64,000 nt of DNA, taken from assembly GCA_013239625.1 (NCBI GenBank), contig MU056313.1:2403786-2467785 (forward strand). Reading direction: 5' to 3'. The notes beneath the pieces are model-generated. The model made no database searches and had not been told where the DNA came from. It was given only the letters and a program-made list of their open reading frames with translations. Both the position numbers and the translations under genes were made by a program. This DNA is from Lama guanicoe. Lineage: Eukaryota. Of the stretch, positions 51,872 to 62,165 are shown in pieces (the first letter of the stretch is position 1; each line of letters begins with the position of its first letter).

Positions 51872-51895
51872 ATGCGAGCCGCCGCACCTCTGCAG
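51872..51895 (+). CDS. SORBS2: Alternative first coding exon of the sorbin-type isoform (MRAAAPLQ)
   Basis: ccagcATG (A at -3), donor CAG|gtgaat in phase 0 joining TVDRPKDW; recalled porcine sorbin begins [16 protein letters not shown]; locally GC/CpG-rich. Confidence 0.88.
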
Positions 51896-54859
51896 GTGAA
51901 TGTGGGGGCAGGGCGGGGAGAGTGGAGCGCAGGCTGCAAACACTCGGTCGGCAACACCCACGTACCTGTGGGGCTGTTGCCAAGAGCTGCCTGCCTGGAA
52001 TGCAAGCCTGGGGGGCCAAAGACAATAATGGACAGAGGAAAACCACGGGCAAGAGATCAGAAAAAGAGGTCAGGTACGATTGGAATCACTGGAAAAGAAC
52101 GAAAGACTAAGAGTGGGGGTTTTCCTCTCTTCTTGAATTTGCATTTGTTCTATGGGGATCCCGTGCTCAGAGAGAAGAGTTAAAAATGGATTATTCTAAG
52201 CATCTGTGTTAGAATTGGAAGCCAAAAAGTAAACCTGCAGAGCAATTGCTGGGGCTTTAGACTTGTTAGATTCTGGAAATGTTGAGTGTGACTAATTAAA
52301 AAGTCCTAAAAAACTATGTTGGAACTGATGATTGTCATATTTAAGTGACAGGAAAAGTTCAGGGGTTGTGATTAACATTCCTAATCTTATGGTGACTATG
52401 TGCTTCTGGTGGTGGCGCTTTGTTGTTTGTTTCTCTTTTAAGATTTCAAAATGGTTTAATTTGACATTGTTTCCTAATGATGGAAGGACACAGTGTCAGA
52501 CAGGTGTGGTGTCATTGGTTTCATTTAATTGACCTTTGAAGCATAATAGATACCCAAATTAGGAGATCCCTGATTCTATGTAGTTATAGGTTCTGTCTGA
52601 AGGGATTTTTATCCGAGACTTCTAGGTGTGTTTTTAAATCAATAAATGTCATACAAAGATGGACATGCAAAGCTGGAGCTGTTTTTATCCACAGGACAAT
52701 TTTCTTAACTAACAGGGCCTTGCTAATTATGTTTTACAAGGAAAAAAACTGAGACGTTATAGATGGTTAGTGAAAATCAAGAAATATAGCATGTTTATAT
52801 TGTTTATCTCCTGCTAAATCCAAAGCATGATTAGACATGCATAAACAAATGCATACACTAGACATTCAGTGCTAGTTCCCCTTCTATAAAATAGAAAATG
52901 AAATATGAGCAACCCAGAAGTTCCTTATAAGGAACCATCAGTTTTATGTACAGCTGTGCTCTTATTTAGACTTTTAAAAGTTTGAGGAGAAGGTACAGGT
53001 CTGAAGTCTTAGTCACATTTCCTCCTTTCCAGCCCTGCAGGGCACATCCCCAAGTATAGCTGTGTTTACAGGAGTGGAGTCAGGCCATCTCGGAGCCGCA
53101 GCATGCCAAGAATCTCCAAGGTTGTTTTTCTTTCCCATCCACATAGAAAGTAATGATTATCAGACGTACATTGCTTCACACGGCCTTTCTGCTCAGCGTA
53201 TACACCACAGGCAGTGCTGTCTCATTTTAGACAACCAGCATACACCAAGGACACAGAACTTTGTAAAGTAACCTAGAAACTCGCAGAAGCCAAGAGTTAA
53301 ACAAATGTCCCTTTAAGCTGTTTGAGTGAAGGGAAGCAGCTCCCGAGACTGCCCTCCCATGTGACCCGGGACTTCTGGGGTAGCCTTTTACTGCCGTCCT
53401 TAACAACAGAAACCGCGAGGGTTCAGATCCCACGAGAGTGTGTAATTAAGGCCAGCTAGTTAAGTGAAATACAAGATTCTTTCCTTCTAGTTCCAATATA
53501 ACACTGTTCAAGCCTTTTCAAAAGCTAGAAAGGGGTGAAAATAGAGTAATAATGTATACTGCTGTGTTGAAAATGTGTGTCTTTCCTCTTTTTGGAAATC
53601 TCTGCGTAAGTCAACGTAGAGTTCTGCTGTTCTGTGAACTACAGGAATACAAAATTTCAGGTTTACTCTGCCAAGGTTACAGAAGACAGCTGAAGACTGA
53701 TTTACTGGTAGTTACTGTCCCATGCAAACCCATTTTGAAGGACACATACGAAAGTAAACTCCTCAAATTTGAGTAGACGTCTATTTACCTAATCTCAGTA
53801 TTTGCTGTAACAACCTCCATAATGGCATTATTTTATAAAAGGAACTTTAAATGATTAGAGGATTTCACTTGGGAAGGGACGGAGAGTTTTCATGCCCCTG
53901 TTGACCAGTTTCATATTCCTCTTTGCCAACCGACTTGGGTATTTCCTGGCATCCCTGTGCTCACCATATAAAGCTAGCAGACAGCAGAACTGAGATCCTG
54001 CCTGATACGTGCCCTCTGGCAAGTGAAGAAAAAAATCCTGTCTGTCAGGATACACTGCCATATACAGCAGTATAACTCACTTATTTGGCTTCCTTGTGGC
54101 CACTGGTTGTGTCCAGGTATGGCTGGGAAACACTTTTATACAAAATTATGTCTTATTTTCTTATTGCTAAAGACTGCAAAGGAATTAAAGTTTCATGAAA
54201 GAGAAATCCACCTTTTATGAAAACGAATGCCCCTTGAAGATACATGTTCAGCTACTTTGTTTAAACCAGCAAATAATAACTAGACCCTCGCTTTATCGCT
54301 GCCTTGCCCACCAGCTCCCGTCACTTGAGTATAAAGTCAATCAGCAATCCACTCTATTCTTCCCTGGTCGAAAGAGCCTAGAATGAACGAAGAAGTGATT
54401 CCCAACAAGGTCCAGTAGCCCCCAGTGTTACTGTGTATTTGTGGTGATCACTAAAACCAGATATTCCTAGAGATCAAAATAAATGTAGATATAGCACAAA
54501 CCCCTCACCCCTTGGGTGAAAAACGCGATGACCCCATTGGAGAGGAAAATCAGGATGTAAAATCTGCACCAAAGCTTAGTCTGACAAGTACAAGGATATT
54601 TTTGTGGCCGTCCTAACAGAATATTTTATATGAAAAGAACTGTCTCAAAAAATCTGGAATATTTAGTTACCGTATACAGAATGGTCGAGTTTCTTACCAG
54701 AATAGCTCTGGAAGAGTTGAGATGAAGATCTTGCCAAGCAAAATCTTTAATTACGATTATAAAGACATAGGTCCACTTTCATAGGTATGCCGTAAGGCAG
54801 CCTTCCATCCAATAACCTGGATTCGTTCGTTATCTTGTTCTATAAATATCTGAGGTTTG

Positions 54860-55100
54860 CTACTGTTACTATTAATTGAGCACTTCTTCTATTGTAGGCA
54901 TCTTTCTAGGCTTTTTTGTATATGTTGTCTCTTTCAATTTCCATAACAATTGTATGCTGTGGATACAACAATTTCATCTCAGAGAAAAGAAGACTGAGGC
55001 TCTAAGAGGTTACTTCACTTGCCCAAATTCACATTGCTAGGAAGTATCAAACAGTAACTAAAGGAACCAGGATTTGAATCTAGCTTGAGCTGACATTAAT
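54860..55100 (-). mobile_element. MIR SINE
   Basis: ttgagcactt...gactgaggctctaagaggtta...cacttgcccaa...ccaggatttgaatc. Confidence 0.65.
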
Positions 55101-55824
55101 CTGTTTTCCACCTCAGCCGACTGTTTACATTATGCCAAAAGCCGGGGTGGATAAGGAGCTTCTGCTCTTAAGGAACTTAGGACAATTCAGCACAGCAAAT
55201 GTTGCCAACATTTTATTATCACGTTAAAGGAATTTTGAAACAAGAGCTACAATTTTTGGACTTGCTCTAGGACCCTAGACTGTTTACTACATTCAGTATT
55301 TTAGTAACTCAGACTAGTAAATATCAAATTTTTATTTCTCTAATTCCAAGCCAATGATCAGACTACAGTTTGAGTCAAAAATATTCCCTAGTTAATTTTT
55401 AAAGTAATGTCCTGAACAGTGTACTCACTAACAAATTTTTAAGAATAATGATAATTACCACCAAAAGGAGTGAGGCGAACTATTACAACACTATTACTTT
55501 CATTCAGTTAGTTTTATATAAATAAGCTTGTGCAGATATCAGCCACCTAGGGCTGAGCACAGCTGCAGCCTGGAAGAAGTAAAACCATAACATACAGTGT
55601 TCCAGCTCAGCCTCAGCTCCAACAAGAGGTAACAGGTTTACCAGCCACACGCATACCTAGATAAATGACTGATACTGTCATCATGAAATAGCAAAGAGTC
55701 AGAAATTTTTATCGCAGAACAGAAATCTGTTATTAAAAAAAGATAAAAATGTAAAAAGAAAATCAAGGAGGAACAGTGTTTACCTGGAACCCGTTTTGTA
55801 ACTGTTGGACATTCTCTTTTACAG

Positions 55825-55891
55825 ACGGTTGATAGACCGAAGGACTGGTACAAGACCATGTTCAAGCAAATTCACATGGTGCACAAACCGG
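55825..55891 (+). CDS. SORBS2: SORBS2 exon with C-terminal half of the SoHo domain ([22 protein letters not shown])
   Basis: attctcttttacAG| acceptor, CGG|gtatgt donor; phase 0 to 1; hallmark [12 protein letters not shown] motif. Confidence 0.97.
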
Positions 55892-60527: not shown

Positions 60528-61529
60528 CTTTCATTACGAAACATGATAGTTCCTTAAAAATTTCTACACTTTCATATACATTGCCTTGTCTAATGCTCAA
60601 AATACCTCTGCTGAATATTACTCCTCAGTTTACCAGAAAGCCAGGGACCTGTCCCTAAGTCTCCCTTGTAGGGTACTTTTATTACCAACATGCTATGGAG
60701 ACAGAATTCCATCCCAGCCCAGGAGTGAGAATTGCCCCCGTCTGTAAGTCAGAAAATCCCTCTTCCTCAGAAACCGTCCCCGCAAAGGAAGCCTTCTTCA
60801 GCCTCAGCTACCCAGGAAAGCTTTATGTTTTAAGTCCCTTTTTGAGTGCCCCTTGAAGGATATTAGTTCAGAGAAAAGAGCTGATTTCAGGGCTCCTGTG
60901 CAATGGCAGGCGAGACTTCTACCACTGAGCCACCAATGCTCCTATGCAATGGGATTAGATGTCTCGCTCTGGTTTTTCAAGGGTGACCCCAAGGAGGGTC
61001 TCCTCTGCCACGCAGTTTGCTTCTATGGATGGCAACCCAAGTGAGACTAAGGCACTCTTCCCAGACAAACTATGATGCCACTTGCAAGATAAACAAGATC
61101 AAACATGATGTGTGCATTACTCCTTGTCGCTTTGGATCAAGGATGCCAGGCCACACAGCGGTGGGATAAACTCACATAGCTTAATGGAGCATAGCCGCCA
61201 CTTACACTAAACACAAATGCACACAGCCGCTATCTGTGACCCCAGGTTTACTAGCACGTCACTAGCCACAAAGTTATTAAGCCAGCAGGACAGTCCTTGT
61301 ACGGGAAAAAAATAGAAGAAAATATGAAACAAAAGAAGTGGCTTTCCTTAAGTCATTTATGTAAAACAAAAGGTAAATGTGGTATTTTCTGCAGACTGAC
61401 ATTTTATCCTGAAACACTTTAAAAAAATCCATACTAAAAGTTACTTTGAAAACAGATAGTGAGTGGTTTTATACAACTGCTTTAAACATACAGAATTATT
61501 TGAACACGTAATTTGTTGTTTATTCCTAG

Positions 61530-61644
61530 GCATGACTGGGACCCTCCAGACAGAAAAGTGGACACAAGAAAATTTCGTTCTGAGCCAAGGAGTATTTTTG
61601 AGTACGAACCTGGGAAGTCATCAATTCTGCAGCACGAAAGACCA
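61530..61644 (+). CDS. SORBS2: SORBS2 exon ([38 protein letters not shown])
   Basis: ttgtttattcctAG| acceptor, CCA|gtaagc donor; phase 2 to 0; conserved SORBS-family [14 protein letters not shown] motif. Confidence 0.97.
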
Positions 61645-62141
61645 GTAAGCATTTGCCGTTCAATAGAGCGCCAGTTCTCCAGGCGTCCTGGGGTTCCCAA
61701 AGAAACCTGAATTTCATATCGTTTAGTAATTTTTTGTCACAGAGGTAATTTATTTAGTTGGCATTATTGAGAAAGCATGTTTATTTTGTGTCATGATTTG
61801 TGCATCTTACCCCAGAACCGAAGATGCGCTCTCTACTATGTGGTCCCTACCCACCAACCGTAGGACTCATTTGCATGTAACCAGAACTGTGCCTTATCAT
61901 GACCCTGAGTTTAATTTAAAAAGAAAGAAAGAACAATACTCAAACGTAACACTGAATTGCCAGTTCACATTGCTAATGAGAACAATCATTCTTTGACCTC
62001 TCTGAGAAAAATGGACCCAGGCAGGTCCATCCCTTGGTTTCCAGATTGATTTCTTAGTATTTCTTTGGCGTAAGGGGAGTTTTTCCAAATGCCTTTCTTA
62101 TAGCAAGTCATTTTAATTGATTCTTATTAAATCTCTCTCAG

Positions 62142-62165
62142 GTTACCAAGCCTCAAGCTTCCTGA
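62142..62165 (+). CDS. SORBS2: Sorbin-type terminal exon, coding part (VTKPQAS-stop)
   Basis: atctctctcAG|GTT ACC AAG CCT CAA GCT TCC TGA; phase 0 after ...HERP gives PVTKPQA, the recalled sorbin C-terminal heptapeptide. Confidence 0.88.
   Translation, partial: VTKPQAS

What the first reader, a model, noticed from the sequence alone, without database searches (positions are those of the whole stretch)
51872..62165. Complete nested 'sorbin' transcription unit inside SORBS2 (154 aa)
Seen in sequence: two tiny exons, 51872-51895 (MRAAAPLQ; inside ORF 51677-52183 but not called as a start) and 62142-62165 (VTKPQAS*; absent from the ORF track), join in phase with exons 55825, 56564, 59111 and 61530 to give 462 coding nt, or 154 aa. 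Established (from recall): porcine sorbin is a 153-residue gut peptide that begins [16 protein letters not shown], ends PVTKPQA-amide and derives from the ArgBP2 locus. Inference: this species keeps a dedicated sorbin isoform with its own promoter, only half a SoHo domain, no SH3 domains and no signal peptide. Sorbin is reported to promote intestinal water and electrolyte absorption, which makes it of interest if the host is a camelid.
Basis: partly seen in the sequence, partly recalled or inferred. Interest (0 to 1): 0.75.

Follow-up and report, generated by a model that had tools for sequence, protein, structure and literature searches.

The report
Known sorbin isoform of SORBS2
Six exons inside this camelid's SORBS2 cytoskeleton gene join in frame to encode sorbin, a long-known short protein nearly identical in pig, cattle, monkey and human; it has neither an export signal nor an amidation glycine, so it likely acts inside the cell rather than as a classical gut hormone.

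Summary
Six AG/GT-bounded exons give 154 aa plus stop, 148/153 identical to pig sorbin peptide and 146-149/154 to 154-aa cattle, goat, macaque and human records. Chance match: 0 of 300 simulations. It is already known: Hand & Eiden 2005 report human sorbin spliced from this locus (title and citation only). The host is alpaca-like, with no camelid-specific residue. 'Dedicated unit' is overstated: the MRAAAPLQ exon starts 61 records that continue downstream, and the VTKPQ tail also follows upstream starts in 3 records. No camelid reads were examined. One point of interest: the window and 7 of 11 tail-bearing records end PQ(A/V)S-stop. The Gly-Arg-Arg amidation signal occurs only in 3 UniProt entries. 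Most likely this is a cytosolic, SH3-less fragment that would compete at alpha-actinin sites (inferred).

The parts
50934..51106 (+). Upstream SORBS2 exon with the first part of Pfam Sorb (model 1-19); not in the 154-aa isoform. Start inferred from the acceptor AG at 50932-50933
   Evidence: Pfam 23.2 bits; alpaca isoforms map to 50927-51106 at 98%
51707..51871 (+). Likely 5' leader of the short-start exon. It follows a strong acceptor at 51706 (17/20 pyrimidines) and is open and in frame with the ATG here (55 codons), so the exon may also be used as an internal exon
   Evidence: goat record A0A8C2SDE7 splices the upstream Sorb exon into the equivalent site, 35/44 identical, then stops
51872..51895 (+). 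Coding part of the alternative first exon, MRAAAPLQ; donor CAG|GTGAAT
   Evidence: begins alpaca RefSeq models X2, X3, X6 and human NP_001139147 (MKATTPLQ)
55825..55891 (+). Shared exon, second part of Pfam Sorb (model 17-39)
   Evidence: Pfam 55 bits, E 6e-15; 22/22 identical in human, rat, wombat, Komodo dragon and sturgeon
56564..56608 (+). 45-nt cassette exon (skipped in alpaca X3)
59111..59300 (+). Shared exon with the proline-rich stretch and a class II SH3-ligand-like PxxPxR at residues 95-100
   Evidence: 100% to Vicugna pacos, 98% to Camelus and pig; motif
61530..61644 (+). Shared exon, highly conserved 37-aa block; equals residues 192-228 in ArgBP2 numbering, recalled as the alpha-actinin-binding segment
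   Evidence: 37/37 in human, rat and wombat, 33/37 in sturgeon; numbering; binding role recalled from Anekal 2015, not seen
62142..62165 (+). Coding part of the alternative last exon, VTKPQAS-stop; acceptor TCTCTCTCAG|G
   Evidence: same tail in macaque, human and colobus, and PQVS in cattle and goat
62166..64000 (+). Presumed 3' UTR, end not located. No AATAAA or ATTAAA; variant signals at 62175, 62256, 62807 and 63834; genomic A15 run at 62810-62824; donor-like sites at 63005 and 63653
62373..62399 (+). 8-codon stretch RSAPSGPL-stop behind a pyrimidine tract; likely counterpart of the different tail on rodent SH3-less isoforms; no in-frame acceptor here
   Evidence: best hit in the window to 4 rodent tails; 3 of 300 simulations reach its score, post hoc

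Best explanation
The six exons encode the 154-residue sorbin form of SORBS2, already recorded in pig, cattle, goat, macaque and human; it is likely made here by combining an internal start exon with an early intronic stop exon, and it likely stays in the cytosol, where it would compete with full-length SORBS2 for alpha-actinin. Shown: exon anatomy, identity to sorbin, no SH3 domains, no hydrophobic leader, no terminal glycine, and independent use of the two end exons across species. Inferred: transcription in this camelid (about 0.8); transcription start near 51.7-51.8 kb and polyadenylation downstream of 62165; a largely disordered protein. The decoy role (about 0.4) rests on what is kept and what is lost. 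It keeps the conserved 192-228 block, a PxxPxR motif and the second part of Sorb. It loses the three SH3 domains, the PKA/14-3-3 switch at S259 and the actin motif at 473-481. The pig gut 'hormone' would be this protein minus its last Ser, released from tissue or by non-classical export.
For: Identity 148/153 to pig peptide AAB20008 and 146-149/154 to five 154-aa records. Cattle AAI49444 and macaque BAE73041 are cDNA-type accessions (from knowledge of the prefixes). The goat and macaque sequences also sit on Logan contigs of at most 1353 and 1067 nt, far shorter than the 10.3-kb span here, so they are spliced. PMC5706990 states that sorbin comes from an alternate ArgBP2 transcript and lacks SH3 domains. 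Best 19-residue hydropathy is -0.32, GRAVY -1.26. The single-sequence AlphaFold model of the cattle orthologue has pLDDT 58, pTM 0.15 and three short helices; no PDB relative. Reviews place alpha-actinin binding in the N-terminal/SoHo region. S259 phosphorylation releases alpha-actinin, and S259 maps 31 residues past the last shared exon. The actin motif is at 473-481.
Against: No camelid reads were examined, and none of the 18 alpaca records fetched ends in VTKPQ. No canonical poly(A) signal lies in 62166-64000. The 192-228 mapping of alpha-actinin binding is recalled (paper not held; the string was in none of the papers listed). If binding needs the whole Sorb domain, the fragment may not bind. 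Published physiology reports water and sodium absorption by sorbin (cited; originals not seen). Low pLDDT from one sequence is weak evidence of disorder.
Confidence: 0.6

Rival explanations
1. The 154-aa protein is a true gut or endocrine messenger. It is released without a signal peptide, trimmed of its last Ser and amidated by a non-PAM route, and its C-terminal heptapeptide promotes water and sodium absorption.
For: The pig peptide record from jejunum and duodenum ends exactly at PQA. Absorption activity is cited in three papers. The tail is kept in cattle, goat, camelid and primates. Non-enzymatic C-terminal amides exist (PMC11821526 passages).
Against: No leader and no Gly. Cattle and goat change the would-be amidated Ala to Val. 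Four rodent SH3-less records carry an unrelated 8-aa tail, although rat was the assay animal. Amides were nearly absent from annotated C termini. The amide itself is recalled and not shown in the fetched record.
Confidence: 0.2
2. The stop exon is mainly a regulatory or low-level terminal or poison exon that lowers full-length SORBS2 output. The short protein is a by-product, and in this camelid it may be rare or absent.
For: No canonical poly(A) signal, a genomic A15 run that could prime cDNA, and donor-like sites downstream at 63005 and 63653. The tail is in only 11 of 341 classified records and no camelid one. Several other truncating tails exist (VSTCH read-through in 8 records, rodent 8-aa tail in 4), suggesting that truncation, not the peptide, is what matters.
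Against: The pig protein with this tail was purified and sequenced (record AAB20008). The frame, six of seven residues and the stop are kept from ruminants to primates.
Confidence: 0.15
3. Sorbin is a classical PAM-amidated hormone made from a Gly-Arg-Arg-extended precursor as listed for pig (P28220), and the camelid form has lost the amidation signal.
For: Pig P28220, human UniProt isoform 6 and rat isoform 2 end in QAGRR(KV). The pig genome was not seen.
Against: Human A0A8V8TNN1, macaque, colobus, cattle and goat end in Ser-stop like the window. The human and rat GRR entries share the variant VSK, against VTK in the other human record. The human 'sorbin polypeptide' AAK81860 has duplicated segments and a C-part closer to mouse (92%) than to alpaca (86%) over the same 205 positions (no matching long human isoform was in the set), so older sorbin clones look unreliable. 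The pig record has no signal peptide either.
Confidence: 0.05

Closest known systems
Porcine sorbin (peptide AAB20008.1, 153 aa; UniProt P28220, 158 aa)
   Same: 148/153 and 151/154 identical; same N-terminus type and VTKPQA tail
   Different: The window ends Ala-Ser-stop. The peptide record stops at Ala, and P28220 continues Gly-Arg-Arg-Lys-Val.
Human sorbin transcript of the ArgBP2 locus (Hand & Eiden 2005, PMID 15949647, title and citation seen only); human A0A8V8TNN1, 154 aa
   Same: Same length, same PQAS end, 146/154 identical
   Different: Only point substitutions; no structural difference found
154-aa SORBS2 records of cattle (AAI49444.1), goat (A0A452F4F7) and macaque (BAE73041.1)
   Same: 147, 149 and 147 of 154 identical; both end exons present
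   Different: Ruminants have PQVS instead of PQAS
Short-start SH3-bearing SORBS2 isoforms (human NP_001139147 isoform 8, 492 aa; alpaca X6, 493 aa)
   Same: Same first exon and truncated Pfam Sorb
   Different: They skip the stop exon and carry three SH3 domains
Rodent SH3-less isoforms (mouse isoform 6 / BAC37554, 308 aa)
   Same: Stop a few residues after the same shared exon; no SH3
   Different: Upstream start, full Sorb domain, and a different 8-aa tail that resembles window 62373-62399

Membership tests
Sorbin isoform of SORBS2/ArgBP2 | Lies in the SORBS2 locus and uses its core exons | tested here: met
   Alpaca SORBS2 isoforms map at 97-100% on these exons
Sorbin isoform of SORBS2/ArgBP2 | MRAA(T/A)PLQ N-terminus from a separate exon, in phase | tested here: met
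Sorbin isoform of SORBS2/ArgBP2 | VTKPQA C-terminus from a separate exon, in phase, followed by a stop | tested here: met
Sorbin isoform of SORBS2/ArgBP2 | 153-154 aa, no SH3 domain | tested here: met
   154 aa; orthologues P0197 and P0208 hit only Pfam Sorb
Sorbin isoform of SORBS2/ArgBP2 | Both end exons on one transcript in this species | not tested
   No camelid reads examined; shown only by records of other mammals
Sorbin isoform of SORBS2/ArgBP2 | C-terminal amide and pro-absorptive activity | not testable with these tools
   Amide recalled; activity seen only as citations
PAM-amidated secreted peptide hormone precursor | N-terminal hydrophobic signal peptide | tested here: not met
   Best 11-residue hydropathy 0.14, best 19-residue -0.32; no dedicated predictor was available
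PAM-amidated secreted peptide hormone precursor | Gly after the amidated residue (PAM cleaves a terminal glycine; PMC11821526 passage) | tested here: not met
   Ala-Ser-TGA at 62157-62165
Dedicated nested transcription unit | First and last exons used only together | tested here: not met
   First exon with downstream continuation in 61 of 71 short-start records; tail after upstream starts in 3 of 11 tail records
Dedicated nested transcription unit | Own promoter/TSS and poly(A) site | tested here: inconclusive
   GC 0.66 and CpG o/e 0.57 at 51800-51999; no TATA near the ATG; acceptor at 51706; no canonical poly(A) signal to 64000
SoHo/Sorb domain proteins (PF02208) | Pfam Sorb above the gathering score | tested here: met
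   55 bits on the window exon; 60.7 bits against cut-off 27, model 15-42 of 42, on the cattle orthologue; truncated

The most novel reading that the evidence does not exclude
Sorbin was never a Gly-amidated hormone precursor. The natural mammalian product ends Ala-Ser (Val-Ser in ruminants), and the Gly-Arg-Arg tails in the pig, human and rat UniProt entries are cloning artefacts. The isolated 153-residue amide arose by loss of the last Ser through non-PAM chemistry. The conserved job of the isoform is that of a PKA-insensitive, SH3-less alpha-actinin decoy, which antibodies against the SH3 region cannot see.
Probability: 0.3. Interest if true: 0.5.

Novelty: already known. Interest (0 to 1): 0.22.

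Why it matters
As a gene-model note it adds a probable 154-aa isoform that was not among the 18 alpaca records fetched. It offers no evidence for a camelid water-balance adaptation. The wider point is that the genomes do not support the textbook picture of sorbin as an amidated secreted hormone: no leader, no glycine, and a different tail in rodents. If that holds, three UniProt entries need correcting, and SORBS2, a cardiomyopathy and cell-migration gene, has a little-studied SH3-less inhibitor form. Antibodies raised between SH3-1 and SH3-2 (as in PMC5621683) would miss it.

Tried and rejected
No whole genome is held, so downstream exons and a poly(A) site beyond 64000 were not seen.

A run search listed 24 runs, 20 holding part of 59000-62900. 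No reads or contigs were laid on the locus, so these shares are not used as evidence and junction use in this species stays open.

A degenerate motif for the stop exon first missed the window through my own design error; corrected, it hit once. In metagenome contigs it gave 5 loci, all chance: no BLASTN match to the window and no stop after PQA. The pig genomic exon was therefore not obtained.

A second MRAAT-like stretch at 16438 (5/8, no donor after codon 8) was rejected as chance. Rfam found 0 matches in 51200-64000. Tandem repeats: 7 small arrays, one inside the span (58251-58305), unrelated. PDB sequence search found nothing. The AlphaFold model was too poor for a fold search. The scan's earlier findings had nothing relevant.

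Camelid-specific adaptation was rejected. The 168-aa ORF 51677-52183 as a gene was rejected: beyond the shared eight residues only one goat model resembles part of it among 432 fetched proteins. The exact camelid 154-aa product was not looked up in the protein collection.

Not held: Hand & Eiden 2005, Anekal 2015 (41), Kimura 2001 (63), Roignot & Soubeyran 2009 (74). Supplement file 1 of PMC13364712 was unreadable; it may hold further SORBS2 motifs.
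Full report
1. Observation. Every intron has GT and AG ends. They total 465 nt, 154 codons plus TGA, giving 17.7 kDa and pI 9.2. With the ends of the pig peptide record as queries, the two small exons are the best matches in all six frames (7/8 and 6/6). 0 of 300 simulated windows gave either match.

2. Host and locus. Exon 59111 is 100% identical to Vicugna pacos SORBS2 and 98% to Camelus and pig. 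Seventeen alpaca isoforms map onto exons from 32334 to 61644. The host is alpaca or a close relative, and the window holds the 5' part of SORBS2. Pfam Sorb is split: model 1-19 in the exon ending at 51106 and model 17-39 in exon 55825. The short start therefore removes the first part of the domain.

3. Identity. The product matches pig sorbin peptide AAB20008 at 148/153 and pig P28220 at 151/154. It matches 154-aa records of goat (149), cattle (147), macaque (147), human A0A8V8TNN1 (146) and an unnamed Logan protein (148). It differs from P28220 at positions 5, 54 and 154, and at all three it equals cattle and goat, so no residue is camelid-specific. The goat and macaque proteins are also on Logan contigs of at most 1353 and 1067 nt. 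These must be spliced, though short-read contigs do not prove a single molecule. [quoted passage not shown] The finding is thus already known in kind and in detail.

4. Is it a dedicated unit? Of 432 fetched proteins, 341 carried both anchor motifs and were classified; 91 were dropped. The set comes from ranked hit lists and is not a census. 71 have the short start: 61 continue into downstream exons (including alpaca X2, X3, X6 and human NP_001139147), 8 end in V(T/S)KPQ tails, and 2 end otherwise. The tail also follows upstream starts in 3 records (a colobus model of 399 aa, a Logan protein of 312 aa, rat isoform 2). The two end exons are therefore used independently, and sorbin is one combination. 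A strong acceptor at 51706 precedes the start exon, and a goat model splices the upstream Sorb exon into the equivalent site. The exon may thus be both first and internal; in this camelid 51707-51895 is open and in frame (63 codons). The region around the ATG is moderately GC- and CpG-rich without a nearby TATA; a promoter is inferred, not shown. No AATAAA or ATTAAA occurs from 62166 to 64000, and there is a genomic A15 run at 62810-62824. None of the 18 alpaca records fetched has the tail, and no camelid reads were examined.

5. The C-terminus. The window ends Ala-Ser-stop. Of 11 records with the tail, 7 end PQ(A/V)S, 1 is the pig peptide ending PQA, and 3 (pig P28220, human UniProt isoform 6, rat isoform 2) end QAGRR(KV). 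PAM amidation needs a terminal glycine and serves secreted peptides (PMC11821526 passages). The window's product has no glycine there and no hydrophobic leader. That pig sorbin is amidated is recalled; the fetched record does not show it. The human 'sorbin polypeptide' AAK81860 has duplicated segments and a C-part closest to rodents (92% to mouse, 86% to alpaca; no long human isoform in the set). I infer that the older sorbin clones are unreliable and that the GRR tails are probably artefacts; that they come from one cloning series is recalled. Against this, I could not see the pig genome (searches gave only chance hits). Four rodent SH3-less records end in a different 8-aa tail, which best matches window 62373-62399 (3 of 300 simulations, post hoc). 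Searches listed no paper that, by title or abstract start, discusses the Ser/Gly conflict, but Hand & Eiden 2005 may already do so.

6. How it likely works. Shown: the fragment keeps the second part of Sorb (22/22 identical to sturgeon), a PxxPxR motif at 95-100, and the exon-61530 block (37/37 in human, rat and wombat; 33/37 in sturgeon). That block is residues 192-228 in ArgBP2 numbering, and S259 lies 31 residues later. Reviews assign alpha-actinin binding to the SoHo/N-terminal region (PMC5706990 and PMC13121097 passages). They say S259 phosphorylation by PKA recruits 14-3-3 and releases alpha-actinin (PMC9361040 table). The 192-228 assignment is recalled from Anekal 2015 (not held). An actin-binding motif lies at 473-481 (PMC13364712 supplementary table), and self-association needs the SH3 region (PMC3903627 passages); both are absent here. 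A single-sequence model of the cattle orthologue is mostly unstructured (pLDDT 58). Inferred: a cytosolic fragment that occupies alpha-actinin sites without recruiting SH3 partners and without the PKA off-switch. The reported pro-absorptive activity (citations only in PMC5706990, PMC2148189 and PMC2777869) is the main evidence for a messenger role. It would need non-classical release and non-PAM amidation; oxidative amidation exists but was nearly absent from annotated C termini. A by-product or poison-exon reading stays open because the 3' end was not found.

7. Other papers looked at, passages only, with little bearing: PMC5621683 (human isoform 6 set aside on size; antibody between SH3-1 and SH3-2), PMC13247085, PMC3886759, PMC7660791 (no mention of intestine), PMC13419524, PMC9011326. 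Pansu 1981, Vagne-Descroix 1991 and Charpin 1992 were seen as titles only.

8. Verdict. Already known; interest 0.22. The residual value is the Ser-for-Gly conflict and the decoy hypothesis (probability 0.3, interest 0.5 if true).

Noticed in passing
window 51707-51895 +: If spliced from the exon ending at 51106 into the acceptor at 51706, this stretch is open and in frame and would insert 63 aa into the middle of the Sorb domain; the equivalent goat model (A0A8C2SDE7) stops after 44 aa.
   Followed up: partly
window 62373-62399 +: RSAPSGPL-stop resembles the tails of mouse, hamster, deer mouse and chinchilla 308-aa SH3-less isoforms. Rodents may use a second acceptor in the same last exon. 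If the AG at 62373-62374 were used here, a 38-aa tail would result.
   Followed up: partly
window 61645-61710 +: Intron read-through gives a 21-aa tail here, whereas 8 records of other mammals end VSTCH at this point; a third way to truncate after the same exon.
   Followed up: partly
P0249 (AAK81860.1, human 'sorbin polypeptide', 409 aa): Looks anomalous, possibly chimeric: human-like N-part with duplicated segments, C-part closest to rodents.
   Followed up: partly
P0208 (AAB20008.1): The pig peptide record differs from pig P28220 at three internal positions that are invariant in the other records aligned; probably protein-sequencing errors.
   Followed up: no
window 35923-36675 +: Large alternative SORBS2 exon (about 216 aa mapped at 35989-36636, 99% to alpaca X8, X9, X19) that also holds the start of X23 at 36142; no Pfam hit.
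   Followed up: partly
window 56609: The donor of the 45-nt exon appears to be the counterpart of the human c.679+1G>T site reported in arrhythmogenic cardiomyopathy: the mutagenesis primer in PMC7660791 resembles this junction (compared by eye only).
   Followed up: no
window 16438 +: An ATG-led stretch with 5/8 match to the sorbin N-terminus and no donor after codon 8; taken as chance.
   Followed up: yes
window 18737-20050 and 25607-25743: Five runs of N (842 bases in all), outside the finding.
   Followed up: no
P0123 (wombat) and P0420 (Hipposideros): Both models have an in-frame Met four codons upstream of the MRAA start; the wombat 155-aa model ends VVKE, not VTKPQ.
   Followed up: no
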